Shown here: positions 3,745 to 24,953 of the stretch, in pieces | Layout of the letters: every line of letters begins with the position of its first letter | How positions within the stretch are numbered: the first letter of the stretch is position 1 | DNA from: Naegleria gruberi | Lineage: Eukaryota | Strand: one strand, 5' to 3' | Assembly: GCA_000004985.1 (NCBI GenBank) | Contig: GG738847.1 | Length of the DNA stretch: 64,000 nucleotides | Position numbers and translations under genes: made by a program | Notes under the pieces: model-generated | Databases searched by the model: none | What the model saw: only the letters and a program-made list of their open reading frames with translations | What the model was told of the DNA's origin: nothing

Positions 3745-5214
3745 CTATTTGTATTCAAGTAAATTATTAAAAACCCATCTAACAATTATGTTTTTAACTG
3801 CAAGACTCTTAATTTCAAGTGGTTGTGCAAAGGCATGACTAATCTTTGCTTCTTTGTCACCATTAAAACTAATCAAAGCATCAATAATATTGTCCAAGTC
3901 ACGTCCTTTCAATTTGAGGTTTTGGGACTCTTCTTCATCCAATCCAACACCTTGCTCAGCATCTAATAATACCACTTTAACTTGCTCAGGGCTCCAACTT
4001 TTTGGCCTGCTTTTATCCAATAGATTATCTTGGATAATTAACATTCCACAAGCTCTTTGTAATGTTTTTGAGTTTGATGCTTGATTGGCATGCATTTGAG
4101 AGGATCCAATATTTGATGTCAAAGGAGTGTATGAAGATTCAATGCTTGAAAAAGAAGGTTTTTGGGGGAATCCAACATGATAACAAATCATTTTTCTATA
4201 CAGTTCTTCCTTTTTCTGGGTGTGGTCATGAAACAGAGTATACAAATCCTTGCTTAATAAATTCTCTAAGCCTTTTTTAGTTAACAATAGAACTTCGAAA
4301 CCTCCTTTTTTCAATTTCAACCAAGATTTTGTTCCAAATTTTGGCTTTGTGTAGCTTATTGTTTCATTCTCTAGATAGCATGTTCCTGTTATAAGAAGAG
4401 ATCCATAATTATTCGCATTTTTTTCTATAACTCGAAGTACGCTATCTGAATATCCCATAACTACCATTATTACTGTGAAGTGTAAATTTTCTCCATTCAA
4501 AGATGGCTTTTCTTCAACTGAATAGGTATTGGGTAAAAAAGCCGATGCTTGATTGATTTCTTCTTGCAACTTTGATAAAGAAAAATCCTTTTCATAGAGT
4601 TTCATTTCAAATAATAACAATTTTCTTAATACTTGTAATGGAGTTTTGTTCAGTGCTATCAATACATCAAATCCACTATTAATTTCTCCAGGAATAGCTG
4701 CACAAAATTGATTTTCACTCATAGCATCGTCTAACACTGAGGTGAATGATACGTAATTTGGATGTAGGTAATTACTAAACCCCATCTCTTGATCGTACTG
4801 TTGTTTTGTGCTAATTGGTGAAAATCCAGGGATTAAAATATTTTGTGTTAAAAAATTGGGAGGTAACTCTAAACTACTAAAAAATGTTTCTTTGAAAATC
4901 CCGCCACATAAATCCCCAAATACAGTAATTTCGTTCGTTTTTGTAAAAGAGAGAGTCAATATTTGTTCAGCTAATAAATCAATGACTGATAATTCCAACG
5001 CCTTTGAAGTGTGGAGTAAAATGGAATTATTTTGCAACAAATTATAGCGCACTCCACTTATTGATGTTTTGAATTTTGATAATTTCATTAAAATATCATC
5101 TTTTAGTAGCTTGGGTATATTAATCTTGACAGTCTTATCTTCCATGACTTGAAAATGCATTTTTAAATATGGAAGTATTTCAATAAAGTTTCTGTGCCTC
5201 TTATTAAAGTACAA
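3745..5214 (-). CDS. C-terminal continuation (or separate downstream cistron) of the P-loop NTPase gene; no recognisable domain
   Basis: 489 sense codons in the same frame as 5218..6489. The first ATG (MHFQVMEDK...) is only 57 nt after the TAG. A separate promoter in that space is implausible. Confidence 0.4.
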   Translation of the reverse strand: MYFNKRHRNFIEILPYLKMHFQVMEDKTVKINIPKLLKDDILMKLSKFKTSISGVRYNLLQNNSILLHTSKALELSVIDLLAEQILTLSFTKTNEITVFGDLCGGIFKETFFSSLELPPNFLTQNILIPGFSPISTKQQYDQEMGFSNYLHPNYVSFTSVLDDAMSENQFCAAIPGEINSGFDVLIALNKTPLQVLRKLLLFEMKLYEKDFSLSKLQEEINQASAFLPNTYSVEEKPSLNGENLHFTVIMVVMGYSDSVLRVIEKNANNYGSLLITGTCYLENETISYTKPKFGTKSWLKLKKGGFEVLLLTKKGLENLLSKDLYTLFHDHTQKKEELYRKMICYHVGFPQKPSFSSIESSYTPLTSNIGSSQMHANQASNSKTLQRACGMLIIQDNLLDKSRPKSWSPEQVKVVLLDAEQGVGLDEEESQNLKLKGRDLDNIIDALISFNGDKEAKISHAFAQPLEIKSLAVKNIIVRWVFNNLLEYK

Positions 5215-5217
5215 TTT

Positions 5218-6489
5218 CTAAAACTCATTAAACTGAAAACTAAAGAATTCTACACTTACTGTTTGAGATGGTATGGCAATACCAAAGGAATGGAGTAAAT
5301 ATAAATGAGCTACCAATTTGGCTTGTTCATCATTGCGCAGAGCAATCGTCACATCGTGTTGTTTTTGCTCAGATTTTTCAATAGCTTCACATATTTTCTC
5401 TTTTGATGATAAATTATTCAAGTTACGCAAAATGCTATTGAATGCATTTTCCATTATTCTTGGAGCAGTTCCAGTATATTCCACAAGAATATCTATGAAA
5501 TCATCAATATCATTTAAGCCTAACAATTGTAAAGCATCCAATAGTGTGATACACGAATTACCTTTTTGAACATGACTCTGTCTGAGCATGATTTCGACGA
5601 CCTGGTTTTCCATAGGTGACAGAAATACAAGACAGTAATCAGAAGGTGGACTTTTTTTAACATCTTGATTCTCTGTCAAAGCTAAGTGTACAGGAATATG
5701 ACCACTAAATATAACAGTGCTCTTATAGGGGATCAGAAGTGGCATTACTTCATTCCATAATTCTAGAAAGCGACTCAAATAAATATCACAACCTTCTTTA
5801 CATGTTGTCCATTTCGAGTCTTGCAATAGTTGCCCAAAATTATTCTGTAAAATTCCATCTACTTCATCAACAAGTACTAAATATCCTTCAGGTAAGGATG
5901 AATCAATATTTAAAGCTTCAAAAATAAGGTTAGCTCCATAATCGTTTTGGTTTGCAAAATCCAACATCTTTTGGTAAAAATCTTGTCTTTTCTGTAAAAG
6001 ATCTTGTGATCCATTTGGTTGGAATTTTGTTATAAATTGCTTGCAATATTCCTTAACCACGAAATCAGCAATTTTTTTGCTCATATCTGAAATACTTTCT
6101 TCCGAAGAGACTTTAAATAATCTAAAATCCAATTCAAATAGCTGTAAATCTTTCACCCATTCCGATTGTTGATCCCATTTTCCATATACCTCTCTAAATC
6201 TTCTGACCAAGGTTGTTTTACCAATACCAAAGGTTTGAAAAAGCGACACTAATTTAGCTTGGCTCAAGTTTTGTTGCTTCTTGTTTTGCACTAAAGTATT
6301 AACAATTCGTTCCGACTCATTTTCACGATTAACAAATTTAAGTTGTAATGCAGAGTTTTTGAGGTCTTCTTTTGTTATTAATACATGAGTCTGTGGAGAA
6401 GAGAAAGGTTTGGTGGTTTCGGGTTCTTGTTTTTGCTTTTTGTTTTTAGGACCATCACCTGCCATTACACATTTTGTGCATTTTTTCAT
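5218..6489 (-). CDS. P-loop NTPase (STAND/AAA-like), N-terminal segment; reading frame continues past an in-frame TAG into ORF 3745..5214
   Basis: 423-aa ORF. Walker A LVSLFQTFGIGKTTLVRRF. Walker B YLVLVDEVDG. The TAG at 5215-5217 is followed in the same frame by 489 more sense codons. Confidence 0.55.
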   Translation of the reverse strand: MKKCTKCVMAGDGPKNKKQKQEPETTKPFSSPQTHVLITKEDLKNSALQLKFVNRENESERIVNTLVQNKKQQNLSQAKLVSLFQTFGIGKTTLVRRFREVYGKWDQQSEWVKDLQLFELDFRLFKVSSEESISDMSKKIADFVVKEYCKQFITKFQPNGSQDLLQKRQDFYQKMLDFANQNDYGANLIFEALNIDSSLPEGYLVLVDEVDGILQNNFGQLLQDSKWTTCKEGCDIYLSRFLELWNEVMPLLIPYKSTVIFSGHIPVHLALTENQDVKKSPPSDYCLVFLSPMENQVVEIMLRQSHVQKGNSCITLLDALQLLGLNDIDDFIDILVEYTGTAPRIMENAFNSILRNLNNLSSKEKICEAIEKSEQKQHDVTIALRNDEQAKLVAHLYLLHSFGIAIPSQTVSVEFFSFQFNEF

Positions 6490-6568
6490 TATTGTTTGGC
6501 GAGAAGATCACCCGAAATCCCAAACAACAACTTTTATTTCTTGTTGGAATTCCAAGTATTAAATCCAC

Positions 6569-7112
6569 TTAGGGTTATTCACGAATTGAAAATGGAATGG
6601 AATAGAATGGAATGAAATTTTTCTAAAAAATTCTATCCAAATAATTCCGTGTCCAGAATTTTTTTTTAGAATTGGTTGTGAACGTTTATTACATTATTCA
6701 AACGTTGTAAACGTTTTAACGTTTTTTAAATGTTTAAAACGTTAAATATGTTTTTCTTGTAATAAGGAAACCATTATTGGAGGCCTCCAATAATCATCCC
6801 TATATTGTGATGATATAGTTGAGCTTGCTTAATGTCCTTAATATCTGTGTGGGCGGGAATCAAACTGATTTTCCATTTCTTTCAAATGTGTAAATACGTT
6901 TTCAACATTTAGAACGTTTCAAACGTTTTTAACGTGTTTAATCAGTTTAGTTTAATAAATTCTTTTCAAAAATTAAAAATAACCACCAACGAAATAATTG
7001 GAATTTTTTCACGGAATCATTCTGAATTATTCTAAAAAATTCTGAAAAATTCCGTCAATTCCATCAATTCCATCAATTCCGTCAATTCTTTCCAATTCGT
7101 GAATAACCCTAA
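6569..7112. mobile_element. MITE-like non-autonomous DNA element (about 545 bp) with 20-bp terminal inverted repeats
   Basis: Left end TTAGGGTTATTCACGAATTG (6569-6588). Right end CAATTCGTGAATAACCCTAA (7093-7112). These are perfect reverse complements. Subterminal GGAATGG/AATTCCATC 9-mer tandem copies sit on both ends. Internal AACGTT-rich palindromic blocks are at 6700-6745 and 6895-6950. No ORF. It lies in the divergent intergenic region between the 6489 start and the 7365 start. Confidence 0.6.
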
Positions 7113-7364
7113 CTAGTAATTGATTTGACATTTTTTTCTAAAGATTTTAGGTTCTTTTTACGTGGCCCATTTCCAGCCATACAAATGATCCTTTTTTCAA
7201 TTCAAGTTGAAAAATAAGTTGAAATTTACATGTTCATTTGAATTTATTGCTTTTATTTTGTCTAATATAGTGTAAATTTACTGTCCAACAGTGGAGTCCT
7301 TGTACAGGAAATTGTTGCCTTCCTTGCAAATGATGAAGATAAATCCAACATTGGTCAAATTCTC

Positions 7365-10334: not shown

Positions 10335-11294
10335 ATGCAACTGTTATCTTCAGAAGTTCTCATCACAGTTTTTGATTTTCTGCTCGATATTTCCAATAAT
10401 TGCATAAATATTTATGATTGTGAAATTAGAAAAGTAATTTTTTCACTTCAATCAGTCAACTCTCAATTCAAGCAATTTTATGATGAAAATTATTGGTGGG
10501 AAGTATTGAAAACTCATCTATTGATGAGTCACTCTGTATTGTCAATGTCCGAGAAGGAGATTGTCATGAATATGAAAGAGAAATTGAAACAAAATCCATC
10601 TTTCCAATCATTTCGAAGATGTACTTTATTATTCGAAATGATGAGACGAAAGGGATTTGGTTTAAAAATGAATGATATGAATAATGAAAATGTATTATTT
10701 AATAAGATATTAATTATTGGAATGAAGGGTGTTGGAAAAACCAAATGCATATTAAATTACGTCTATTCTAATGCTTTCCCATATAATCACGAAATTGCAA
10801 TTGAGGATAGCTATAGGAAAATGTCACATTACATTGAAAAGTTTCCAGTGATTGTAGAATTATTCGAGTTAATTGAAATCAATCCAATTAGTGATTACAA
10901 TTTGAAATACGTTAACGAGTCTAACATTGTTATTGTAATGTGTGAATTATATTCTGAAGAATCAGTTCAGTATTTGGAGAGTACTTTATTTCCAGCTATG
11001 GAGGATAAAATAGCAAACCTTCCAACTTTAATTGTAATTAATGATAAGCTCAATAAGGAAAATCATACAAAAAAACGAATTAAGAAACAAAATATCAAAT
11101 CAATTCTAGAAAAGTTTAAAATTCATAATTATTCATTCATAGATATAAGTACAAGTAATTATTCAACGATTGTAAATTTATTTTCTCATTGTACTACTAT
11201 TTTTGCTTTTACATTCCAACAAAATATTGAACTTGTAGAAGTAATTTTAAAAAAGGATAAGAAATTACTCTCCAAAAATTGTGTAATCAATTAA
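10335..11294 (+). CDS. F-box-like N-terminus fused to a degenerate Ras-like small-GTPase domain (predicted pseudo-GTPase)
   Basis: 319-aa ORF. N-terminal LSSEVLITVFDFLLDIS (F-box-like). G1 ILIIGMKGVGKTK. Switch-I-like YNHEIAIEDSYRKM (compare Ras YDPTIEDSYRKQ, where the T35 equivalent is Ala here). No DTAGQ G3 motif (VIVELFELIE instead). G4 degraded to INDKLN. Confidence 0.55.
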   Translation: MQLLSSEVLITVFDFLLDISNNCINIYDCEIRKVIFSLQSVNSQFKQFYDENYWWEVLKTHLLMSHSVLSMSEKEIVMNMKEKLKQNPSFQSFRRCTLLFEMMRRKGFGLKMNDMNNENVLFNKILIIGMKGVGKTKCILNYVYSNAFPYNHEIAIEDSYRKMSHYIEKFPVIVELFELIEINPISDYNLKYVNESNIVIVMCELYSEESVQYLESTLFPAMEDKIANLPTLIVINDKLNKENHTKKRIKKQNIKSILEKFKIHNYSFIDISTSNYSTIVNLFSHCTTIFAFTFQQNIELVEVILKKDKKLLSKNCVIN

Positions 11295-12295: not shown

Positions 12296-15200
12296 TTATT
12301 GTTGATCTTGTTGCATGGATGGTGGTTGATAGACTTCATCTTGTTGCAATAACAATTCGTCGTCTTCATCTGATTCACTTTCTTCACCATCTTCGAGAAC
12401 TTGAATTTCACTTTCTTGTTGGAAGACATAGTCACCAGGCTTCTTTCTTTCACTCTTCAATTTCTTCAACTTTCTCTTACCCTTTCTAATGTAAACTCTA
12501 GTGAGAGTCTTGATTCTTTCGACAGCTTGTGGATCTCTCATAACCAAACCAACGAATGATAATACCAAGAAAATGATAGTGATAGCAATCAAGATAATTG
12601 GTGAAATATAGTAGGCCTTATAGGAGAAACCATAATTTTCCAAAGCAGTAGCAACATTTTGATTACTTTCTTGATACTTTCTAATTTCAACAGTGTACAT
12701 TAATTCGACAGCCCATCTCACTGGAGAAGAACAAACCAAAACCAATGTATACCATTCCTTAGACATGGTACGAACTGTTGGTTGAACACCACCCAACAAG
12801 GCACACAAAATAATGTACATTACACCAACAAATTCAGCATGAGTTCTTTGAACGAAAACTGAAATGAAATAGCCAAGAGAACTGAAAACAATTTCGAATA
12901 ATAAGAAGAGTCCATAGTATGTGTAAAATTCAGCTTCAGGATTAACGAGGATATACCAGAAAGTAACAAAGACCAATGGATAGATCAACAAGGAAGGAAT
13001 TTCACCAGTCAATTTACCAAGGAAGTAACTCATCTTGTTGATACCATTCTGAGCTTCACGTCTATAGAGTTCCTTATCAGCACCAAAACATTTGAGTGAA
13101 GATTGCATAGCAGCAATGGCAAGAGCAGAAACTGTAACAATACTCATTGGTGCAATCTTATCAATTCTTGGCAATGAACATTGATTACTAATAAATGTTG
13201 GACACAACTTTTGAAGAGTTGATGAAAGAGGACCAATAAAGTCCATGTTAAAGTAGAAACCTCCAATAATTACAGCAAGAGCAAAGTGGAAGAAGAAATC
13301 AAAGAAGACACCCTTGTAGTGACGACTCAATTGAAGCAAAGCACGAAGAGAGAATAAGAGATATTGACCCAAGAACGCAATTGGCTTTCTTTGTCTTTCC
13401 TTAGCAACTTCACTGCCCAACAAAACTTGTTGTGGATCAATAACAGAAGCACCAACTTCTTCATCATCTTCTTGTTCTTGTTCTGATTGTTGAGTTTCAT
13501 TACCATTTCTTGATTTGAGCCATTTCTTTTCATTTTCTTCCTTCTTCAAGTCCCACAAGTGCAACAAACGTTCTGGTTCAAAGTTTGGATCACCAGGTCT
13601 TTCAACATTACCCAAACAAACATCAACAAAAAAGTCTGGAGGATTTTCATAGTTTGGACATTTGAAGCCAATTTCTTCAAAGAATCTCAAAGCATCCTTG
13701 GTTGGACCATTGTAAACAATGCCACCATTCTTACCCATGATAATACAATCGTCAAAGAGGAGGAATACATCATTTCTTGGTCTGAGCATGGTAGAAACAA
13801 CTGTAGTACCACTTTCAGCAGCCAACTTGAAGGCCTTACACAAGAATTTCTTTCTTTCGAGTGGAATTTCATCGAATGGATTATCGACAAATAAACAAAC
13901 TGGATCAGCAACCATTTCAAGAGCCATGTTAACAAAGACTCTGAGTTCTTCATCGAGACCGTGCTTCTTTGATTTACCAATTGTATCATACATAAAGTTT
14001 TCAATACCCAAAACCTTACATGTCTTTTCAACACGTCTACCAACTTGACTGTATGTATAATAACTTGGCAAACGAGAGTGACCAGCAAATCTCAACAATT
14101 CGTGAACCTTCAATTCCTTAGCCATATCAAGTTGCTTTGGGGCAAAGCTGATAATATTTCTGAATTCGTGCGGATCCTTAATTTGTTCATTAATCATAAT
14201 TTTACCATGAACGAAACCCAAGTGATGTCTACCAGAAAGAGTATTGAGCAATGCAGAAGTTGCTTCAGAATCAACACCAATAATACATGTAGTTCTTCCG
14301 TGATAGACACGACCAGTGACACCTTCGAAAATAACTTCTTCACTCTTCTTTCTGATATATGACAAATCCTCAAAGGCATAATCAATTGTAAAGTTCTTCT
14401 TTGAGAATGGTGGTTCATTGACGAGAGAACCAGTACTATCATAATTGAATTGTTCATTTCCTTGAATAAAGTTGGCAATATTAATACCAATGTTGGCAAG
14501 ACCATTTTGTCCTGAGATTTCTTGGTCTTGTTTAATCTTCTTTTGCTTCATCTTCTTCTTCTTGTAAGAGGCAGTGACACATCTGACAACAACGAAAGTG
14601 ACCAAAACGAGGAAGACAACAACGAACATTAACAAGATACCCAAATAGAAGGATTGTTGCTTGGCAGAACCTTCTGGACAATAGGAGAACCATTGACAAC
14701 GTTTAGGATAAGTAGAGCCAGCAGCACAGTGATAACCAGATGGACACAACAACATTGAGTTGGTATTAGGGCAATAATAACCAGCAGTACAAGCAAGTGG
14801 TTCCTTAGTACCTCTTGGGCAATAATAACCATCTTCACACAAGACTTTGCTTGACAAGGTTGGACAATAGTAACCTTCTGGACAATAGTGCTCATCACTA
14901 CCATAAGTACCAGTTGGACAGTATTGAGTTCTGTTACCAATTTGTTCCAAACATGGAGTTGGAGTCATAGAGTATGGAGTTTCACAATAGTTCAATGCAG
15001 GACAAGCATTTACGAGAGTAGTGCCTGTAGTGTCAAGTCCTTGAGTAGCTAATGGACAATATTGACCATTTCTACAAGTGTATAATTGACTTCTAGTTTT
15101 TCTTGCAAGATAACCTGGTGGTACTGGAATAGACATCAAAGGGTTCAAACAAATTTGACCATCAGGACATCTTTGCTCAGTAGAGGAACCTTCAATTCCA

Positions 15201-17403
15201 CAAGTTGTTTCAAATGTTGAGGAAGGTGAACAAGCAGTAGGTGCAGTCATGGCCGAATCTTTACATTTGAATCCAACAGGACAAGGTCTTCTACGACCTT
15301 CGTTATTGGTTGGACAGTAAAATCCTGGTTCACATTTAAAGACCATTGTTGGTCTAATTGTGTGATAACCAGCAGAAATAGAAACAGTATTGGCGTAACC
15401 TTCAGCAAGAGTTTTCCAGAATCACCATATCTTGGACAAGTCCAACCTCCATTACACATTGAGAAGTAACCAATAAAATCGAATGCAGTATACTTGGTTG
15501 GATATTTCTTACAAGCTTCAGTAAATTTAGTCAATGAAGATGGAGGATTTGAAGAAGCCAACAAGGTGCAAATATCTTGCAATCTTATTCTGGCATCAAT
15601 ATCAAAGGCCTTTCTAGAAAGGACAGCAAAGATGTGTTGTGCATTTTCAGAAACATAAATGTCATTAATTTTACCATCACTGTTCAATAATGCAGTTTGT
15701 TGCAATGTAAATAAGCTTGAACTAGAAGTGGAAGCAGAAGTGTCAGTACAAGCATACTCTTGGAAGGAAAATACTTCAATACTTTCTCTTGTGGCAATGT
15801 TGATGGTGTGATAAAATGTTGAATAGGCATCAGTGATAGCAGTGTCACTTGTTTTGTACATTCCAATAACCATCTTTGAAGGAACAGCTGATGTGGTTTT
15901 CAAATCTGATTCCTTATTAGGTCTGTTAGTACAGGTTCCACTCTTTGAGTATTGAGGTTTGGTAGTTGATGTATAAGAAGTTGAGCATGTTGTGTCAGCT
16001 GGTATACCAACGGCCTTGTATATGCCAGCTGGGTCAGAACTAATATCAGTTACATCCTGACTTGCCATTTCTGGAAGGTTAAAGACAAATAATCTTGGGC
16101 CGAAAGCATTTGCAGAGGCTGTAGTTGAAGCAACACCAACAGCAACCCAAACAGATTGGGAAGTCTTAGCAAGAGTACCATAACATTCAGTAAATGCACT
16201 CACAGAATAAATACTTTCACCAGAGACACCATGTGTATAAATGATTGAGGTCTTCTTTGTTAAGTCAACAGGTGAGTCATTTGGCGTACCAACGAGTTGA
16301 ATCAAATTGACTTGTGACTTGGATTGAATTAAAAGAAGAGGTCTACTGGCTTTAACTGAATTACAGTCAACCTTTGATGAATATGTTGGGTCAGCACCAA
16401 ATTGTCCATGAGCAAAACCGAAAATCTTTCTTTCCTCAGTTTGGTCAGCAAATGCCCATTTATAAAGTGTAGAACCCTTGTAAATGATAATACCATTGGT
16501 AGAAGTAGAAGTACCATATGAGAGAACAGCCATATGAGTTGCAGTTCCAAGAGTATCAATGTAGGCAATTGTTTGCAAATCTTGCACAAATTCGCTTGAG
16601 GACAATTTGGTTGTTGTATCAATGGTAAGAGCAATAGTTTTAGAAGATGAAACTGTGAGAGTACCAGTAGTATCCAATTTAAGAACCAATAATGTTTGAG
16701 TTGACAAGGTAACATAAATTGTTGCCTCAGTAGAGCTAGTTCTATAGACAGCCATCTTACTTGGTTTATCTGTTAAAGCAGTTTTAGCATCAAGTACTTG
16801 ATAAGAGTAGGCCAATTGTTCAGTAGTCATATCAAGAACAAGCAAATGTCTATTGGTCAATACTAGTAAATATTGTTTGGCACCATCAGCTGACATTTCC
16901 AAAGGTTTAGCAGCTCTAACAAAGAAACAACGATTGTTTTCGGATTGTGATGATTGATCAGTAGTGGTAACATTTCCTCCAGAATAGTCTTCCTTATAAA
17001 TTTTAACAATATTATCAACATCTTGATCTTTCACACAAATCATGTTATTTTCAGTTGATGTAATTGGTGTCTTGTCTGTTATTTTGGTATATAAACATTG
17101 TGCACCAGTGGCATCACAATTAAAAATGTCAGGATCTCTAAAAGTGATTGGTTGACTTGCTCTAAAGTTATTATATGTACACCATGATGGTCTTGAAGTG
17201 GATAAAGATGGATCACATAATCCAAAGGCTGATTTAACTTGTTCACCAGATAATGCAGCACACCAGTCTGGAGGTGTGGCAGCAAGAGTTGAAGCACAAC
17301 TCAAAGTAATCATCAACAAGATGGAGACGATTAAATATCGAACAGCAACACGTTGTTGTGCTTGTCCTTTCAACAATGGTCTATTATCATTACGTATCAT
17401 CAT
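12296..17403 (-). CDS. ABCG-type (NBD then TMD) half-transporter-like protein with huge extracellular N-terminal domain and degenerate ATPase motifs; two ORF segments joined across a frame break near 15350-15410
   Basis: Upstream segment 15247..17403: signal peptide MMIRNDNRPLLKGQAQQRVAVRYLIVSILLMITLSCASTLAA, then a 700-aa Ser/Thr-rich ectodomain. Downstream segment 12296..15346: multiple CxxGxYCP cysteine repeats (CEPGFYCP, CPEGYYCP, CEDGYYCP, CTAGYYCP), then TM FYLGILLMFVVVFLVLVTFVVV. ABC domain with degenerate Walker A IIGVDSEATSALLNTLSGR (Lys replaced by Ala), degenerate signature HGLDEELRV and Walker B CLFVDNPFDE (Glu replaced by Asn). Typical ABCG block STMLRPRNDVFLLFDDCIIMGKNGGIVYNGPTKDALRFFEEIGFKCPNYENPPDFFVDV. 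Six-helix TMD. Acidic tail. Confidence 0.8.
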
Positions 17404-18148
17404 TGTTGATCGCGCAACGATATTGTTGTTGTTGTTTGTTATTAAATATTATTCGAAACTCTTCTCAAGAGGAGATGCAAACAAGTTAATTGTTATCAAT
17501 TTCTTTTAGAAAGTGGAGAGAGGAATGGATAAATAATAGCTAGCAGCAAATACACAACAATTATTCAGTGATGAAAGCTTTGTAAATTTTTTTTTCTTGT
17601 TGATTGTTGTGATGGGTCAATCAGATGTCTGTGAATGTTTAGACTTTGGGTTGCTGGTTTATTTCACAATAGGTTCTCATGTTGGATGTTGCGAAAGTGA
17701 TCTTGATATTCGGTATGTATTGGAGACATAAGATATTAGAAACTTCACAGACCTATAATATTTAATAGCATTTTATACTTTTCTTTGAACAATTGAAACA
17801 TGAGGGTTATTGCTTCCGATTAGATCAAATTTATCTTCTTCGTATCAATGATGTTGTGGAATTAGGAATGTTGAAAGACAGAGGAAGAAATTATTGAATG
17901 AGCACCACTACACTGCGAGAGTCAAACAACAAGAATCGATTCATCATTGGGAGAACTAGCCAAGTTACGCTGCCGCGACTCTAAGGTTTGGTTAGGAAAC
18001 AATTTTTTAAGAGCGCTGAAATTTCAAGACTTCCTTAGTTTTCCTCACCAATGTTAAAAATTTGGCGGGGAATCCCAAGCTGTGTTGATTTCTTCATCGT
18101 CCAACATTGAGTTTGTTTACAATCCTCAATTTTAACCATAAAAAGAAC

Positions 18149-18231
18149 CGTAATGGAAAGACTCAACCGTAAACCACACACTCTCAAACACACACCACAA
18201 CAATTGTTTACGGTTGAGTCTTTCCATTACG
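18149..18231. repeat. Perfect 26-bp inverted repeat (hairpin, about 31-nt loop) spanning the start codon of the 18153 gene
   Basis: Arm 1 is 18149-18174 CGTAATGGAAAGACTCAACCGTAAAC. Arm 2 is 18206-18231 GTTTACGGTTGAGTCTTTCCATTACG, the exact reverse complement. The ATG at 18153 lies inside arm 1. Arm 2 encodes FTVESFHYE. Confidence 0.8.
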
Positions 18232-19217
18232 AGAAATTGAGAAAGGAGAAGGAAGAACAAGTAGCATTGGAGCTAAAAAAGTTGAGAAAGGAAAAAAAAG
18301 AAAAGGAAAAGCTTGCACAAGAAAATAAGGAATTGCAAAGAAAACTTGAAATGATTGAAAGAGAAAAACTTTTTAAATTGGAGCAAGAGAATGAACTTTT
18401 AAAGAAGGCAACTCAAGAAGTAAAGCAAGAAGAAAAGAAGCAAGATAAACAAGAAACGAAATTGAAAAGAAAGGTTAATGATGAGGAAGTTTCCACACCA
18501 ACAAAGAAAACTAAAACAGATCCAACCATTACAGTTGTGAATAATTATTATGCTAGTCCATCAAGTATTGAAACAAAAAAGCAATCAAGCCCAAAGACTG
18601 TAGCTACTCAAGAGGGTTGCAAACACAAACGCATTTACGATCAATTTATTTACATCTACTGTTCAATGACAGGTCAGAAACCTAAAGAGTTTATTGACAA
18701 TCCAAAACAGGTTCAAGAATTTATTACCTTTTTTGAATTGAAATTGAAACCGAAAACACTTGTAAAGAACTTCAAACCTGATCCAAATATGACAACCTCT
18801 GACTATCAGGAAATTCTCTTCTACCTTCTCAACAGCATGAAGGGTAAAGAAGGTGAAAAGAAACAAGATGAAGTCATATCTGGTATTTTAAAGGGCAAGT
18901 TGAAAAGCAAATTTAACAAAGAGCTTGTGCCATACCTCATCGCTTTTGCCTATAACAATGTAGAAGGAAAAAAGCAATTACAAGGAAAAATGGAGGATTT
19001 TTTGAATGATAAAACTAAAGTTGATTCATTCATAAAGACATACAATCTCGATTTAAATCCAGAAACAAACAAACCATACCTTAAAGCTGAAACTATTTCC
19101 AATAACAAAGCTAAGATTATGGACATTGTAAAGAATCCAAAAACTCTGAAAGATTTGTTGAATGAAGCATGCAAGGAGGTGATTCAAAGATTCTTTGGCT
19201 CTCCAAAAACTAAATAG
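18153..19217 (+). CDS. Hypothetical Lys/Glu-rich coiled-coil protein
   Basis: 354-aa ORF. Residues 25-110 are KEKEEQVALELKKLRKEKKEKEKLAQENKELQRKLEMIEREK...; the C-terminal half is less biased. No catalytic motif found. Confidence 0.5.
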   Translation: MERLNRKPHTLKHTPQQLFTVESFHYEKLRKEKEEQVALELKKLRKEKKEKEKLAQENKELQRKLEMIEREKLFKLEQENELLKKATQEVKQEEKKQDKQETKLKRKVNDEEVSTPTKKTKTDPTITVVNNYYASPSSIETKKQSSPKTVATQEGCKHKRIYDQFIYIYCSMTGQKPKEFIDNPKQVQEFITFFELKLKPKTLVKNFKPDPNMTTSDYQEILFYLLNSMKGKEGEKKQDEVISGILKGKLKSKFNKELVPYLIAFAYNNVEGKKQLQGKMEDFLNDKTKVDSFIKTYNLDLNPETNKPYLKAETISNNKAKIMDIVKNPKTLKDLLNEACKEVIQRFFGSPKTK

Positions 19218-19543: not shown

Positions 19544-22500
19544 TTATTGCGTTACGTTTATTGGGCCAGATACTTCTGGTGTTACTTCCTCCTTTTCCTC
19601 AATAGGAGTGGAATGTGAAGATAAGAATCCGAGAGCTTGTAAAGATTGATTATTCACATCTTCTTGTTTCAATTTTTTCTTCGCAAACGAGCCTCTTACA
19701 GTTGGACCTTCAACACTCTTATTTGGTCCAATTCCATACAAGTTTTCCAAGTTATCATAATTTTCATGTTGATCTGCTTCAGATTCTTGACGAACTGAAT
19801 CTTCATTATGCTTGCTATTTGAAATTTTACCAACTTCAAGAGATGTGTCTGTCTTTTCATCTGCTCCTTCTTCAGAATGATGAGAATCAGTTTCATATTG
19901 TAAAGGATCAACGTGATGCTTCCTCTTGAGCAGATAAGTTTGACATAAACCTTTTCCTTTTACATCAATTTTACGTTCTTCAAATTCCATTCCCATGTCA
20001 TGAACTCTTTCATAGGTAGCTCTAGAAATTTGAATTCTGCCTGGTTCACCAGTTGACTCCATTCTTGAGGCTGTATTAATGGTATCTCCCCACAAATCGT
20101 AGGCAAACTTTTTGATACCAATCACACCAGCAACAACTGGTCCTGTATGTAGACCCACACTATGTAGTTTCAATTTAAGAAAATTTCTTAGTAATTACAT
20201 TATAAATTATATACTTACCGAATATTAACATTAGTATTCTCACTTGAATTATATTCCTTGATTACTTGAAGTGTATCAATGGCAAATCTCAATGATCTCT
20301 CAGGGTGATCTGATTGAGCATTCAAGTTGATACCACCAACACAAAAATAGGCATCTCCAATAGTTTTAATCTTTTCCAAATTATACTTTTCAGTGAGTAC
20401 ATCAAAACCATTTACAATTGCATTCAACATCAACACAAGCTCAGAAGGATTCATTCCAGAGCTGATTTTTGTAAATCCAACCATATCTGAGAAGAAAACT
20501 GTTACATCATTGAACTTTTCAGCAATGAATGTTTCACCTCCCTTCAATCTTGAAGCAACACTCTCTGGCATAATATTTAACAATAATTGTTCAGATTTTT
20601 TCTTTTCTTCAGCTAATAACATATTTTGTTTCTTTTCAGGTGTGAAATCTTTAACAAAGCAACTAATAATTGGTTTCTTATTGGCTACACTAACTGAAAG
20701 ATTAACCTTGGATGGAAATTTACTTCCATTCTTTCTGACACATTCCACTTCAAGTGTTTCACCAAATGACTGGGTTGCATTTACCATTTGCTGGATAATT
20801 TGTGCTAGTTTTTGTCTATTTGGGTCCATAGGGTCAAATAGCTTGGTCAATTGCTCGCCCAAAACATCACTATTATTCATACCATACATCTTTTGAGCAA
20901 CAGGATTGAAAAGTTCAATATCACCTTGTGAATTACATAAAATGGCTCCATCAACTGCAGAATTCAAAATTGCCCTCACCTTACCATCTCCACCACCATC
21001 TTTTTCCTTGCTTTTTTCTGATGAAGAGGCCCTAGATTTAGACGAGAGATCATTGAAAAGTACAAATTGTTTAAGAGCATCATTGGAATCAATATACTCC
21101 ACAGGTAAGTAATTGAGTAAACTTCTTAATTGTTGAATCTGATCCCAAAAATCTCTTATTAACACATATGCAAAATATGATAGTGATATTAATGCAATGT
21201 ATCCTATAACAACTGCAATTATGGATAATGTAAAACTTGGAGTCGATGCATATGTAGAATATAAATCAAAAATGTCTATTATTCTATCCATAAGGGCATT
21301 TGACATTTCACTTCCCTTAAGCAAGGTCAAGAATAAATTGTCTATAGCGTAATTACTGTAATATACATCTTCGTTCAATCTTAATGACACAGTACTAATT
21401 TCTGTAACGAGCTCATCCAAATTGGTGCAATAAAATGTGGAAACGTTGGTACAATTTGTAATTGGAGAAATAAGAATATCAATATCCTCATAAGTATTCA
21501 TAAATCTACCACCATATCTTAATACTTCCCATGAAGAAGCAATAGTTCCAAATAGTGATTTCATTTGAACGTGGTAAGTGCTAAGGTCTGATTGTGAGAG
21601 CAAACGATCATCATTCAAACTACTCTTGGAAGTATATCTCATAAAACTAAATAATTCTGTCATACGGTAGGCTGCTCTGTTTGTATTTCTGAAAATTTCA
21701 ACTCCAGAAGTAACGTATTTAATCGCTAAACTTTCAGTATTAGAAATAATTTGCATATCAACGAAAAGCATTGTAATGCAAAGAACAGTTACAATGATAC
21801 TTGACACAACAACGAGTGAAATGGTTGTCTGAGGTTTTGAAATAATTCCATTCTCTTTGATATCCATTTCTTCATCAGACTTCTTGTCGAGACCTTGAAA
21901 TATTTTACCAACTTGATCCTTGGGTAAGGTTGTGGCAATAAACTTAATAGATGATCTCAATGACCTCAAATGTACTAACAATATCATAACCACAATTGCT
22001 GCACAAACACCATATACAACAACTGCAGCTACGTAGAAGGCAATAAATTGAATGTTCATATTTTGAACAGATTCAGAATTTCTACGCAAAAATAAATCAC
22101 AATAAGCATCAAAAGCTGAGCTACCTCCATTTCTATTTGTCCATAAAAACATGAAATCACCAGATGTTATTGTAGTATTAAAGCTATTTGCTTCCTTCTT
22201 CAAATAAGTCTTGGCATATTTGATTAAACTATCAGTAATTTCTGAAATGGAAGCATTTTTGGATTGAATGTAATCGGAAGGAATTGTTGAATCATTACTG
22301 TAATAGAGAACTGGTGTAACAAGAGTATATATAGGATTGGTATAGTCTGCTATGGATTCAGAAGACATTGTACCAGAGGCCTCAGCCAATTTTAACTCAT
22401 CCAAAAGTCCCTTATACTTTTCCATTCTCTCTAATTTGTCTTGGAAAAAGTCTGTAACATTAACCACATCATGTAAACCAGAGGATATAAGTTCATTCTT

Positions 22501-24953
22501 ATAGGTTGGATAGAGTATCATAAAGTTTTGGAATACTCTAATTTCCCTCAAAAGCAATCTAGGTACAGCAGATGGCATGCAAACATAGTAGGAATTCTTA
22601 ATGTTGCTAGAGAGCTGACCAGCAAAGGAAACTGACATACCAATACCAATAGATACAATACACATTGAAAGAAAAGATAGAATCAGGAAAAAGAATAAAT
22701 AAATATTGTGTGTGTGTTGTCTGTTAAGAGAAACTCTAAACTGGTATTCCTTCTTTTGGTTGCCTACAATATTTTCAATGCCACTGAATTCATCAATTCT
22801 ATCTTCGTAGGAATGACTAATGCCACTTCTTGCTCCAGATGTTTTTTGTACATCAACGCTTGCTTGATTAGTAAATCCTTCACCAAAGTAATTACTTTCT
22901 GGCAGTACTCTATTATTTTTTCCAATCTTTTTTGGAACTGAGGTCTTTTTTGTTTCTTCTTCTTCAATATAGTTGGCTTCTTCATACATTTCATATGCTT
23001 GATCTCTTTCAAATTTGACTTCTTCTAAGAATTTTGCATATGTTCTCAATACAGTCTTATTGTTACCATAGTTTGACATGAGGCCCTTAAGAGTAATTCC
23101 AACTTCCCTTGTGATGGAAGTAATTTGTTTGTTGATACTTTCTACCTTCTCGAACGAAATATTATCATTAATAAATTCTTTAAAGAAGGACTTGTGGAGT
23201 GAGGAAATAATTTGTTGTTTCTTTTCAACTTTTTGTAAAATATGTTTAATTTCTAGCAATCCTTTGCCACTGTCAAGAATTGTCTCAATTTCTTTAGTTC
23301 TCTCTACAATAGTAAATCTTTGTAACAGAGAGGGTTGATTTTTCTTTGCCTGAATAAATTTGTTAGATAAATGAAAATACTTTAAATACGTACTTTTTCT
23401 AAAATTGCAAGTGATTTTTGTTGTCCTGTTTCAAAAAAGTTACCACAAATAATGGAGGCTGCAATTAATAAATCAACATTTTGGTAAGTTTTTTGATTGG
23501 CAACACCCTTAATAAAACATTTGGAAAGTTCCAAATCACTGAGATTACCCAAAGTAGAGGTAGATCCTTTCTTCATACACCATTTTAAGAAGAGGAATAG
23601 TCTTCTTGAGCGATTGGTTTCTTCAATTTCTTGTAAGATTTTGATAGACTCCTTTTCTAGAATGTATTTAGGATTCATAATGTCATCATTACTCAAATTG
23701 TCTAATCCACGTTCCAAGTGATTCATAAATATTCCTCTCAGATCCTTATTAATGTATCTAGTCCATAAATCCATGCACAACCAACCAATGAAGGAAAATA
23801 TTATCATTACACCAATAGTCATGCCTAACAGTCCTAAACCAAGACCATACTCATTTTGAGTATTCACATATGTGGAAACAACACCACACAAAGAACCTCC
23901 AAGAGTGGCACAAACAAAACCAAAGTAAACAGCATTCTCCCATCTTCTATAAAAAGGCATTGAAAATAAAAAGAAAATAGTGATGCAAAAGCTAGCTACC
24001 ACAAAGTAAACTGCTTGAATTACCACAAATTGATCTCCTACAACATTAATCAACAAATAGTAAATTTGATAGCTTAGAACGCTTAAAAAATAGAGATGAG
24101 CATCAAATGTTAAGAAGGGAGTTTCACTCCTTGGATTTGCATCTGTTGTTGTGTAAAAACCAACAAAGGTTGTGAAAATTGTGAGCACATATGACAAAAG
24201 ACCAATTATAATGAAAGCCAAATTGGTGCCCGAATAACAGGCCACGTCAGGAAATCTATTCAAAACTTGTTCAGCTGTTGTTGAAGAAGTGACCAGCACT
24301 GCTGACGAATAATTACAATTCAAAAACCCCAACATGAGCCAACTGATTGGCAAACTTGTTAAAGAGATTGTTACATTCAATATTCTAGTAATGACTTTGA
24401 TTTTGGGCCAATACTTGCTCATTCTGTAGATAGATCTGTAGGCAATTATTAAAATAATGACTTGAAGTAGCTGTATGGCAAATATAATACCTGCAATAAT
24501 GACCGCTGCAGTGTAAGGTAAATGTTCAAAACCAAATGTTAGAGGATAATTAACAGCTCTTGCTATCCACCTTCCATACTCGCCAAAGTTATAACTAGGT
24601 TGAATGGCAATCACTAATGTTGCCCATATGAAATATAGTCTGATGAGTAGAGTTTTGATATATTCATTTCTTCCAACTAATTCTTGTCTGGTTTGTAAAT
24701 TAAGAAGGAACATGAAGGATCTCTCCTCTAACTGAGTAACAATAGACTCATTATAGTAATCTTCCAGTGATGATGTGGTACTACCCACTTGTGAAGCATT
24801 CACAACACTACCTGCTGCATTGGCATCATTAGGTTGTCTTGTTGAAGTAATATAACTTCGCTTATCTATTGAGGCAACATTGGTAGAAAAGTTATAATCT
24901 AGCACACTTCCGGATTCACCATCTGAACCAATAATACTTCCTCTCCTACTCAT
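19544..24953 (-). CDS. Class III nucleotidyl cyclase (adenylyl-type residues) with PAS domain and large N-terminal polytopic membrane region; 3 exons (24953-23394, 23349-20219, 20159-19544)
   Basis: Exon 1: about 9 TM helices, ending ...LAILEK before donor GTACGT. A 44-nt intron (23350-23393) joins in frame to exon 2, which begins AKKNQPSLLQRF.... Exon 2: coiled coil, 4 more TM helices with large loops, and a PAS-like block KVRAILNSAVDGAILCNSQGDIELFNPVAQKMYGMNNSDVLGEQL. Cyclase core FSDMVGFT ... EKIKTIGDAYFCVGG ... NVNIR, then a 59-nt intron (20160-20218). Exon 3: VGLHTGPVVAGVIGIKKFAYDLWGDTINTASRMESTG. The metal Asp (FSDM, IGDAY), the Lys in KTIGD and the N/R in TINTASR are all present. Confidence 0.8.

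What the first reader, a model, noticed from the sequence alone, without database searches (positions are those of the whole stretch)
12296..17403. ABCG-type half-transporter with about 1000-aa extracellular N-terminus and degenerate ATPase motifs
The overall layout is signal peptide, Ser/Thr-rich ectodomain, a run of CxxGxYCP cysteine repeats, a TM helix, an ABC nucleotide-binding domain, and a 6-helix ABCG-type membrane domain. The ATPase motifs in the nucleotide-binding domain are degenerate. The Walker A lysine is replaced (GVDSEATS instead of GSGKST). The ABC signature reads HGLDEELR instead of LSGGQRKR. The Walker B catalytic Glu is Asn (DNPF instead of DEPT). The surrounding ABCG-diagnostic blocks are well preserved, and the ORF is intact over more than 1000 codons. 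That combination argues for a conserved non-hydrolysing ABC module, for example a receptor or regulator, rather than a decaying pseudogene. The gene also has a frame break near 15350-15410. Changing the aaaa run around 15375-15395 to aaaaa would read ...CNGGWTCPRYGDSGKTLAEGYANTVSISAGYHTIRPTMVFKCEPGFYCP... continuously.
Basis: partly seen in the sequence, partly recalled or inferred. Interest (0 to 1): 0.65.

Follow-up and report, generated by a model that had tools for sequence, protein, structure and literature searches.

The report
ATPase-dead ABCG protein with propeller ectodomain
This Naegleria gruberi gene encodes a 1,702-residue membrane protein that has the full body plan of an ABCG transporter plus a large outside-facing beta-propeller, has lost every residue needed to burn ATP, and is nevertheless conserved in related amoebae including the pathogen N. 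fowleri, so it looks like a transporter chassis reused for an ATP-independent job.

Summary
On the minus strand, 17403-12296, two long ORFs (718 and 1016 aa) join into one 1,702-aa protein if one base is added inside a 29-nt stretch (15385-15415).

The layout is: signal sequence, Cys-containing N-module, seven-bladed beta-propeller, CxxGxYCP cysteine stalk, extra TM helix, ABCG-type NBD, six-helix ABCG membrane domain, 77-aa cytoplasmic tail.

The window is Naegleria gruberi NEG-M, not a dictyostelid.

Walker A Lys, Q-loop Gln, the signature SGG, Walker B Glu and H-loop His are all replaced. The same five losses occur in uninterrupted orthologs from N. fowleri, N. lovaniensis and Willaertia magna, and in seven environmental relatives. 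These form one clade inside a large family of "long" ABCGs. The rest of that family shares the ectodomain but keeps canonical motifs.

The loss is selective: 23 of 75 conserved NBD columns are gone, nearly all in the catalytic motifs. NBD and TMD are under purifying selection (dN/dS about 0.1).

The dead clade also gained a conserved C-terminal tail (basic helix, acidic cluster/di-leucine, terminal YQPP).

My best reading is a conserved ATP-independent "pseudo-transporter" acting as a receptor or scaffold. Whether the N. gruberi frame break is a sequencing error or a recent lesion is unresolved.

The parts
12296..17403 (-). Whole gene. It gives a 1,702-aa protein once one base is added in the break; the stop codon is at 12296-12298.
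   Evidence: ORF list, sequence and repaired translation. It aligns end to end with the N. fowleri ortholog P0001.
17278..17403 (-). N-terminal signal peptide or signal anchor (aa 1-42).
   Evidence: Hydrophobic segment at aa 24-42 after a basic n-region. Orthologs also start with a hydrophobic segment. No signal-peptide predictor was available.
16936..17277 (-). N-terminal Cys-containing module (aa 43-156), including the conserved SWC..NF..PITFRD.DI.NC motif.
   Evidence: Invariant Cys and Trp positions between N. gruberi and N. fowleri. The SWCxYxN motif is shared with the canonical relative P0034. AlphaFold confidence is low for aa 84-157.
15610..16935 (-). Seven-bladed beta-propeller (aa about 157-598).
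15457..15609 (-). Helical hairpin after the last blade (aa 599-649). It carries the family-wide motif VS.N.QH.F....R..W.I.....R...IC.
   Evidence: Helices 599-615, 622-633 and 640-643 in the model. BLASTP E = 1e-8 to the canonical long ABCG P0034 across aa 577-635. The motif appears in the A4 consensus.
15385..15415 (-). Frame break. A net -1 nt lies somewhere in the 29 nt between the codons for conserved GDSG and VSIS. The A4 run (plus-strand TTTT) is at 15412-15415.
   Evidence: Three-frame translation, protein alignment with N. fowleri, DNA alignment and coordinates.
14651..15456 (-). Cysteine-rich stalk of CxxGxYCP-type repeats (aa 650-918, 28 Cys).
   Evidence: Cys positions and motif matches. 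The Cys, Gly and Pro columns are nearly invariant across 25 family members. No Pfam match, even at E <= 10.
14582..14650 (-). Extra transmembrane helix TM0 (aa 919-941), followed by the basic stretch KKKKMKQKK.
   Evidence: Hydropathy peak of 3.29 at aa 922-940. The positive charges after it place the NBD in the cytoplasm (inference from the positive-inside rule).
13610..14401 (-). Degenerate ABCG-type nucleotide-binding domain (aa 1002-1265). Motif coordinates: Walker A 14255-14278, Q-loop 14129-14146, signature 13940-13963, Walker B/D-loop 13865-13894, H-loop 13775-13795. The ABCG NPxDF motif is retained at 13628-13645.
   Evidence: PDB phmmer alignments, motif table, column statistics, ABC_tran score of 22.2 bits below the cut-off of 25, and coordinates.
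12530..13384 (-). ABCG-type six-helix membrane domain (aa 1341-1625). Its first extracellular loop carries the family-specific Cys pair C1401/C1409.
   Evidence: Pfam PF19055 and PF01061, six hydropathy peaks, 86% identity to N. fowleri, dN/dS 0.093.
12299..12529 (-). Clade-specific cytoplasmic C-terminal tail (aa 1626-1702). It has a basic helix (RVYIRKGKRKLKKLK), an acidic cluster with DEDDELLL (12347-12370) and a terminal YQPP (12320-12331).
   Evidence: Comparison of sequence after TM6: 53-87 aa in all 9 dead-clade members, 3-9 aa in 16 of the 21 canonical relatives tabulated. 78% identical to N. fowleri.

Best explanation
The gene is the Naegleria gruberi member of an old, monophyletic heterolobosean clade of 'long' ABCG proteins. 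The clade derives from ATP-driven ancestors that had the same ectodomain.

Shown:
- All five catalytic elements of the NBD are replaced: Walker A Lys, Q-loop Gln, signature SGG, Walker B Glu and H-loop His.
- The P-loop is acidic and differs from member to member.
- The rest of the NBD, the membrane domain and the ectodomain are kept under purifying selection.

Inferred:
- The protein neither binds nor hydrolyses ATP in the canonical way. Both its Walker and its signature halves are degenerate, so it cannot complete a consensus ATP site with any partner.
- It most likely works as an ATP-independent membrane receptor or scaffold. The propeller plus cysteine stalk would bind something outside the cell, or in the lumen of a compartment.
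- The dimer-forming ABCG membrane domain and the inert NBD would serve as a structural or conformational chassis.
- The newly acquired tail (basic helix, acidic di-leucine-like DEDDELLL, terminal YQPP) would recruit sorting or signalling adaptors.

The single frame break in the N. gruberi sequence is most simply a 1-nt sequence or assembly error, or an allele-specific lesion, in an otherwise intact gene.
For: - Orthologs: uninterrupted genes in N. fowleri, N. lovaniensis and Willaertia magna, plus 7 environmental members, all carry the five losses.
- The clade is monophyletic in an NJ tree of 128 NBD+TMD sequences.
- Erosion is selective. Of 75 NBD columns conserved at >= 80% in canonical relatives, 23 are lost in the clade. 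Nearly all 23 lie in or beside the Walker A, Q-loop, signature, Walker B/D-loop and H-loop positions. The other 52 are kept.
- The P-loop is not conserved within the clade: GVDSEATS, GVNYEASL, SIDESSGE, GREQEARL, ADDQGIAL and so on.
- Constraint between N. gruberi and N. fowleri: NBD 83% identical with dN/dS 0.135; TMD 86% with dN/dS 0.093. The ratio is 0.33 upstream of the break and 0.15 downstream.
- Pfam ABC_tran is below threshold here and is absent from the precomputed Pfam of dead members P0001 and P0015, but present for the canonical member P0031.
- The ectodomain is a confident seven-bladed propeller, homologous to that of canonical members.
- The C-terminal tail is clade-specific.
- No intron can bridge the break, because only 29 nt separate conserved residues.
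- A second isolated 1-nt frame break occurs in the formin gene of the same window, which fits sequence errors.
Against: - No experiment or tool here measures nucleotide binding. Degenerate sites in other ABC proteins often still bind ATP.
- The receptor/scaffold role and the reading of the tail motifs as sorting signals are inferences from architecture only. Short motifs such as DExxxLL or YQPP arise easily by chance, although their conservation across the clade argues otherwise.
- I could not search the Naegleria genomes for a canonical paralog, so a heterodimeric regulatory role is not excluded.
- dS between the two species (0.9-1.6) is near saturation, so the dN/dS values are approximate.
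- I did not recover any N. gruberi protein model for this gene, so the break may be real.
Confidence: 0.5

Rival explanations
1. It is the non-catalytic subunit of a heterodimer. The dead protein pairs with a canonical long ABCG paralog and tunes, targets or gates a transporter whose ATP is handled only by the partner. This would be analogous to, but more extreme than, ABCG5/ABCG8.
For: - ABCG half-transporters must dimerise (established knowledge).
- The family is large, and canonical members share the same ectodomain.
- Partly degenerate members occur elsewhere in the family: P0118 has lost Walker A/B but keeps SGGQ, and P0097 has lost the signature but keeps the Walker A Lys and Walker B DEP. 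These show the one-sided, ABCG8-like or ABCG5-like pattern, so asymmetric pairing does evolve in this family.
- The membrane domain is very highly conserved.
Against: - In every known asymmetric ABC dimer, the degenerate Walker/H-loop half and the degenerate signature half sit on different chains, so one consensus site survives. Here both halves are degenerate on the same chain, so both composite sites would be defective.
- No ABC gene lies next to the dead gene in the window, in the N. fowleri contig or in the 22.5-kb environmental contig.
- The existence of a canonical long paralog in Naegleria was not established.
Confidence: 0.3
2. The N. gruberi copy is a recently inactivated pseudogene. 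The 1-nt frame break would then be real. The locus would yield at most a secreted 718-aa propeller fragment, even though orthologs in other species are functional.
For: - The break is present in the sequence given.
- Neither ORF, nor any near-identical N. gruberi protein, was found in the protein collections.
- The orthologs show that the ancestral state is a continuous ORF.
Against: - There is only one lesion in 5.1 kb.
- There are no stops in 1,016 codons downstream, and purifying selection is as strong downstream (dN/dS 0.15) as expected for a working gene. Any inactivation would therefore be very recent.
- Another otherwise intact gene in the same 64 kb, a formin, also has a single 1-nt break. 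That points to sequence error.
- The protein searches that failed to find an N. gruberi model also missed the N. lovaniensis and Willaertia orthologs, so that absence carries little weight.
Confidence: 0.3
3. It is still an ATP-using transporter. Non-canonical residues would substitute for the lost motifs, and the protein would still pump a substrate.
For: - The NBD fold and the ABCG coupling motifs (NPxDF, VYxGP, ELLRF..RLP) are kept.
- The membrane domain is highly constrained.
Against: - All five catalytic elements are gone at once.
- The P-loop carries two acidic residues and no Lys, and is not conserved between clade members. That is the opposite of what a working phosphate-binding loop shows.
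Confidence: 0.05
4. The frame change is biological: a short intron or a programmed -1 ribosomal frameshift at G-GAA-AAC.
For: A -1 slip of tRNA-Lys on the A4 run would give exactly the repaired reading (sequence).
Against: - Only 29 nt separate residues conserved with N. fowleri, which is too short for an intron.
- There is no X-XXY-YYZ slippery heptamer.
- The N. fowleri, N. lovaniensis and Willaertia genes are continuous, so no frameshift signal is conserved.
Confidence: 0.03

Closest known systems
ABCG half-transporters (human ABCG2, ABCG1, ABCG5/ABCG8; plant ABCG25 and ABCG16)
   Same: Reverse NBD-then-TMD order, an ABC2-type six-helix membrane domain, and ABCG-specific NBD blocks including NPxDF. 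The best PDB sequence matches have E = 1e-28 to 1e-19.
   Different: Those proteins have a cytosolic N-terminus and at least one consensus ATP site per dimer. This protein adds about 920 extracellular residues and an extra TM helix, has no consensus motif at all, and carries a 77-aa C-terminal tail.
Asymmetric ABC proteins with one degenerate site (ABCG5/ABCG8, yeast Pdr5, Candida Cdr1, CFTR, TAP1/2)
   Same: Natural replacement of Walker A Lys, Walker B Glu, H-loop His or signature residues, with the protein remaining functional (established knowledge; review PMC7756269 listed). Pdr5 is the top PDB hit.
   Different: In those proteins the degenerate Walker half and the degenerate signature half belong to different NBDs, so the second site is fully canonical. 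Here both halves are degenerate in the one NBD.
Canonical 'long' ABCGs of many protists (Pfam PF19055 ABC2_membrane_7 type; for example representatives P0023-P0038). Arabidopsis ABCG24/ABCG28 are, from memory only, shorter members of the same type.
   Same: Signal sequence, ectodomain with the VS.N.QH.F...R..W.I motif, CxxGxYCP stalk, TM0, NBD, TMD, and a first extracellular loop with a Cys pair.
   Different: They keep GPSGAGKT, VPQED, SGGQRKR, LDEPTSGLD and IHQPR, and most end 3-9 residues after TM6. The link to the Arabidopsis proteins was not tested here.
ABC proteins used as regulators or channels rather than pumps (SUR1/2, CFTR)
   Same: An ABC transporter chassis is reused for a non-transport role (established knowledge).
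   Different: SUR and CFTR still bind, and at one site hydrolyse, ATP. This clade appears to have abandoned nucleotide chemistry altogether (inference).
Propeller-plus-cysteine-rich type I receptors (sortilin/Vps10, LDL-receptor family, semaphorin/plexin, integrin alpha)
   Same: This is an analogy only. They have an extracellular beta-propeller followed by a disulfide-rich module, a TM helix and a cytoplasmic tail with acidic or di-leucine-type motifs (established knowledge for the receptors).

Membership tests
ABC subfamily G (reverse half-transporter) | NBD lies N-terminal to a single ABC2-type membrane domain with six TM helices. | tested here: met
   Pfam PF19055 (116.7 bits) and PF01061 (59.3 bits) lie C-terminal to the NBD. 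There are six hydropathy peaks at aa 1365-1621.
ABC subfamily G (reverse half-transporter) | NBD is homologous to ABCG NBDs, including ABCG-specific blocks (NPxDF, VYxGP). | tested here: met
   phmmer against the PDB gives ABCG8 1.3e-28, ABCG2 1.8e-28 and Pdr5 4.8e-32. 52 of 75 conserved NBD columns are retained.
ABC ATPase (functional NBD) | Walker A motif GxxGxGK(S/T). | tested here: not met
   The sequence is GVDSEATS. Lys is replaced by Thr1049, the Gly positions by Ser and Ala, and there are two acidic residues.
ABC ATPase (functional NBD) | ABC signature (L/I)SGGQ. | tested here: not met
   LDEEL replaces ISGGQ (aa 1150-1154).
ABC ATPase (functional NBD) | Walker B hhhhDE with the catalytic Glu, plus the Q-loop Gln and H-loop His. 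| tested here: not met
   Asp1174 is kept. Glu is replaced by Asn1175, Gln by Lys1090, and His by Leu1207.
ABC ATPase (functional NBD) | Reaches the Pfam ABC_tran (PF00005) gathering score. | tested here: not met
   22.2 bits against a cut-off of 25 for the isolated NBD. There is no ABC_tran hit for the full protein.
ABC ATPase (functional NBD) | Binds and hydrolyses ATP. | not testable with these tools
   This needs purified protein.
Long ABCG with ectodomain (PF19055-type) | Signal sequence, ectodomain, CxxGxYCP cysteine repeats and an extra TM helix, all preceding the NBD. | tested here: met
   The ectodomain motif is shared with the canonical member P0034 at E = 1e-8.
Asymmetric ABC heterodimer subunit (ABCG5/G8 or Pdr5 type) | Only one half-site (Walker A/B/H-loop, or signature) is degenerate in a given NBD, so that one consensus composite site remains. 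| tested here: not met
   The Walker A/B/H-loop half and the signature half are both degenerate in the same NBD.
Decaying pseudogene | Several disabling mutations and relaxed constraint; orthologs also eroded. | tested here: not met
   The clade does not meet this feature. There is one frame break in 5.1 kb and no internal stops. dN/dS is 0.09-0.33. Orthologs are intact in three other species. Whether the single break inactivates the N. gruberi copy itself is a separate question that these tools leave inconclusive.

The most novel reading that the evidence does not exclude
Heterolobosean amoebae, including the pathogen Naegleria fowleri, carry an ancient class of 'ABC pseudo-transporters'. These are full-architecture ABCG proteins that gave up nucleotide binding entirely. 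They would now work as surface or endomembrane receptors: a beta-propeller plus cysteine-stalk ectodomain is read out through an inert ABCG dimer and a newly acquired adaptor-binding tail. That would be the ABC-transporter counterpart of pseudokinases.
Probability: 0.4. Interest if true: 0.75.

Novelty: new variant of a known kind. Interest (0 to 1): 0.6.

Why it matters
ABC transporters are defined by ATP-driven NBD dimerisation. Natural members with one degenerate site are well studied. A conserved lineage in which a single-NBD half-transporter has lost both its Walker half and its signature half, so that no consensus site can form with any partner, would be a clean natural case of an ABC fold working without nucleotide chemistry.

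It gives a direct handle on what the ABCG membrane domain and NBD scaffold can do on their own. It also bears on what the unexplored propeller ectodomain of the wider 'long ABCG' family is for.

The protein is conserved in N. fowleri, where a large, lineage-restricted extracellular domain could be of diagnostic or therapeutic interest.

Practically, the single-base frame break means the gene is easily split or missed in annotation of N. gruberi.

Tried and rejected
- **The search for homologous proteins.** The full repaired protein returned only the N. fowleri cluster and one weak bacterial ABC protein. The word pre-filter was evidently swamped by low-complexity words, because it missed the N. 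lovaniensis and Willaertia orthologs later found by the exhaustive phmmer search. Two further searches given as DNA references (ectodomain, NBD+TMD) returned nothing at all, although P0001 must match. I treat these as tool failures, not as evidence.
- **Exact look-ups.** Neither of the two ORFs is in the collection. The flanking N. gruberi protein P0005 could not be traced to a contig with gene calls. I therefore could not see how, or whether, the reference annotation models this locus.
- **First AlphaFold run.** With a 2-sequence alignment it was useless (pLDDT 38.9). It was replaced by a 25-sequence run.
- **afdb50 fold library.** Unavailable.
- **Independent copy of the break region.** A metagenome scan for a 23-mer next to the break found nothing.
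- **Intron or programmed frameshift.** Considered and rejected. The conserved anchors are only 29 nt apart, there is no slippery heptamer, and the orthologs are continuous.
- **Neighbouring 1014-aa ORF (20215-23259).** It is not a paralog. It encodes a TPR/PAS/adenylate-guanylate cyclase protein.
- **Literature.** Searches for Naegleria ABCG, PF19055, ABC pseudoenzymes and the ortholog accessions found nothing on this protein class.
- **Pfam on the cysteine stalk and the ectodomain.** No family, even at E <= 10.

Full report
**What is in the sequence.** On the minus strand there are two long ORFs, 17403-15247 (718 aa) and 15346-12296 (1016 aa). They overlap in different frames. Reading the region base by base shows the upstream frame ending its conserved sequence at ...CNGGWTCPRYGDSGK. 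The downstream frame opens at ...TLAEGYANTVSISAGYHTIRPTMVFKCEPGFYCP. Adding one A to the A4 run (minus-strand aaaa, window 15412-15415) gives one 1,702-aa protein with a single terminal stop. The break itself is real.

**Source organism.** The window is not dictyostelid. Five flanking ORFs are identical, residue for residue, to annotated proteins of Naegleria gruberi NEG-M (XP_002682301, XP_002682503, XP_002682505, XP_002682303, XP_002682517) on a 941,567-bp scaffold. GC content of 31-38% fits.

**Architecture.**
- Hydropathy gives an N-terminal hydrophobic signal (aa 24-42), one strong TM helix at aa 922-940 followed by KKKKMKQKK, and six TM segments between aa 1365 and 1621.
- Residues 650-918 contain 28 cysteines and seven CxxGxxC[PA] motifs.
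- Pfam recognises ABC2_membrane_7 (116.7 bits) and ABC2_membrane (59.3 bits), but not ABC_tran, in the whole protein.
- The isolated NBD scores 22.2 bits on ABC_tran, under the 25-bit cut-off.
- Against solved structures the NBD matches Pdr5, ABCG8, ABCG2, ABCG25, ABCG1, ABCG16 and ABCG5 (E = 5e-32 to 3e-19). The alignments place GVDSEATS on the Walker A, HGLDEELR on the signature and FVDNPF on the Walker B.

**Relatives.**
- A word-indexed search found one close relative, a 1,735-aa uninterrupted protein from Naegleria fowleri (FDP41_005966, XP_044559926.1; 64% identity over 97% of the length).
- An exhaustive phmmer scan of 1.84 billion cluster representatives with the 1016-aa ORF gave 14,341 hits.
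- The nine best ABC hits are N. lovaniensis C9374_011496 (79%), Willaertia magna ABK040_002358 (56%), and seven unnamed proteins from JGI metagenomes or Logan assemblies (46-36%).
- I aligned the NBDs of all 150 listed representatives to the query.
- The query, N. fowleri and those nine hits lack the Walker A Lys, the Q-loop Gln, the signature SGG, the Walker B Glu and, in all but two, the H-loop His. A fragment, P0036, that covers only Walker B and the H-loop lacks both of those residues as well.
- About 130 more distant hits (33-24% identity) read GPSGAGKT / VPQED / ISGGQRKR / LDEPTSGLD / IHQPR.
- In an NJ tree of 128 NBD+TMD sequences the dead proteins form one clade. Another fully degenerate protein (P0147) is its neighbour. 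Three other degenerate lineages (P0096/P0097, P0118, P0073) fall elsewhere.

**The loss is selective.**
- Of 75 NBD columns conserved at >= 80% among the canonical relatives, 23 are lost in the dead clade. Almost all of them lie in or directly beside the five catalytic motifs.
- Those columns are aa 1040-1051, 1090/1092, 1148-1157, 1161, 1174-1181 and 1205/1207, plus one at 1226. The other 52 are retained.
- The Walker B Asp survives as Asp or Glu.
- The P-loop is not conserved between clade members and is often acidic. A phosphate-binding loop under selection would not look like that.
- Overall conservation is high. Identity between N. gruberi and N. fowleri is 43% in the N-terminal ectodomain, 67% in the cysteine stalk, 83% in the NBD, 86% in the membrane domain and 78% in the tail.
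- Nei-Gojobori dN/dS is 0.33, 0.24, 0.135, 0.093 and 0.146 for the same five regions. dS of 0.9-1.6 is near saturation, so these ratios are approximate.

**The ectodomain.**
- A first AlphaFold run on two sequences failed (pLDDT 38.9).
- With 25 family members in the alignment the model of aa 1-664 reached pLDDT 75.2 and pTM 0.81. It has about 28 strands between aa 157 and 598, followed by a helical hairpin.
- The fold is therefore a generic seven-bladed propeller with no specific family.
- The 25% Ser/Thr content belongs to a folded domain, not to a mucin-like stretch.
- The ectodomain predates the loss of ATPase motifs. The last blade and hairpin match the canonical member P0034 at E = 1e-8. 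The family alignment shows shared motifs throughout the C-terminal ectodomain, the stalk and the first extracellular loop.

All nine full-length dead-clade proteins continue 53-87 residues beyond TM6. The tail has a basic helix, an acidic cluster (DEDDELLL in N. gruberi) and, in six of nine, a YQPP motif at or near the C-terminus. Sixteen of the 21 canonical relatives I tabulated stop 3-9 residues after TM6. The clade therefore lost nucleotide chemistry and gained a cytoplasmic tail.

**The frame break.**
- Residues conserved with N. fowleri (GDSG upstream, VSIS downstream) are only 29 nt apart in the window. An intron cannot be the explanation.
- A net one-base deficit lies somewhere in 15385-15415, not necessarily in the A-run.
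- The N. fowleri, N. lovaniensis and Willaertia genes are continuous. There is no slippery heptamer. A programmed frameshift is therefore unlikely.
- There is no other lesion in 5.1 kb, and constraint downstream of the break is strong.
- The formin gene in the same window (Drf_GBD/FH3 in ORF 28297-30969, FH2 in ORF 27014-28585) also has one isolated 1-nt break, in its FH1 proline repeat at about 28587-28608. That makes sequence error a reasonable suspicion.
- I could not obtain reads or an independent copy. Error against recent real lesion remains open. I put a real lesion at about 0.3.

**How it most likely works.**
- Shown: ABCG architecture; a topology that puts the propeller and stalk outside and the NBD inside; complete, ancient and clade-wide loss of the catalytic residues; purifying selection on the remaining scaffold; a clade-specific tail.
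- Inferred: the NBD no longer binds or hydrolyses ATP in the canonical way.
- A composite ABC site needs Walker A/B, Q-loop and H-loop from one NBD and the signature from the other. This chain is degenerate in both sets, so it cannot contribute to a consensus site as a homodimer or with any partner.
- That sets it apart from ABCG5/ABCG8, Pdr5, CFTR and TAP, where one canonical site always remains.
- I therefore favour (0.5) an ATP-independent role. The ectodomain would bind a ligand or surface, the inert ABCG dimer would be the structural or conformational chassis, and the tail would engage sorting or signalling adaptors.
- The main rival (0.3) is a regulatory, non-catalytic subunit of a heterodimer with a canonical long ABCG. 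It is weakened by the both-halves-dead argument and by the absence of an adjacent ABC gene at three loci. It is not excluded, because I could not search Naegleria genomes for paralogs.
- Residual ATP use by non-canonical residues seems unlikely (0.05).

**Comparison with what is known, and novelty.**
- By fold and order of domains this is an ABCG protein of the PF19055 'long' type.
- By the defining ATPase features of ABC proteins it fails every sequence test.
- The orthologs are annotated only as hypothetical or 'ABC-2 type transporter domain-containing' proteins.
- Full-text searches found nothing on this class, on Naegleria ABCGs or on the ortholog accessions.
- I rate it a new variant of a known kind: a fully ATPase-dead, conserved clade within a poorly studied ectodomain-bearing ABCG family.
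- Interest is moderate to high (0.6). The sequence evidence for a 'pseudo-transporter' is clean and directly testable, and the protein is present in N. fowleri. The function is still inferred, and the N. gruberi copy itself carries an unresolved frame break.

Noticed in passing
window 27014-30969 (minus strand); break at about 28587-28608: A formin gene is split into two overlapping ORFs: Drf_GBD/FH3 in 28297-30969 and FH2 in 27014-28585. A single 1-nt discontinuity in the FH1 proline-rich repeat causes the split (GGTGTTCCAAT-CCTCCACC, where neighbouring repeats read CCAATGCCTCCA). This region is also the GC spike (0.466) at 28-29 kb. It is a second isolated frame break in the same 64 kb, which suggests indel errors in the source sequence.
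   Followed up: partly
representatives P0096, P0097, P0118, P0147, P0073: Other members of the wider long/short ABCG family have independently degenerate NBDs. P0118 lost Walker A/B but keeps SGGQ. P0097 lost the signature but keeps the Walker A Lys and Walker B DEP. P0096 and P0147 lost all three. Asymmetric or dead NBDs therefore seem to arise repeatedly in this family.
   Followed up: partly
representatives P0019 (6346 aa, 33 matched stretches), P0046, P0053, P0061, P0144, P0145, P0159: Very large proteins consist mostly of the same CxxGxYCP-type cysteine repeat, without an ABC module. They match the stalk at about 35-42% identity. The repeat has no Pfam family.
   Followed up: no
window 20215-23259 (minus strand): The neighbouring 1014-aa ORF encodes TmcB-type TPR repeats, a PAS domain and the first 103 of 183 positions of an adenylate/guanylate cyclase domain. 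The cyclase domain is cut by the ORF end, so the gene probably continues across an intron or another break.
   Followed up: no
window 10335-11294 (plus strand): A 319-aa ORF has a divergent Ras-family GTPase domain (33 bits) preceded by about 120 residues of unknown nature. This exact sequence is not in the protein collection, although its neighbours are.
   Followed up: no
tool behaviour: the search for homologous proteins returned no hit at all when the query was given as a window DNA reference, although an obvious ortholog (P0001) exists. Even with a protein query it missed the N. lovaniensis and Willaertia orthologs. Negative results from that tool should not be read as absence.
   Followed up: yes
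locus L001 (N. fowleri contig) 5148-7295 and 13230-18599; locus L003 (environmental contig): The genes flanking the dead-ABCG orthologs differ between the window, N. fowleri and the environmental contig. In N. fowleri they are LRR proteins, glutamate dehydrogenase and a 1789-aa unknown. In the environmental contig they are MutL, histone H2A and a MYND protein. No conserved neighbourhood or adjacent ABC partner is apparent.
   Followed up: partly
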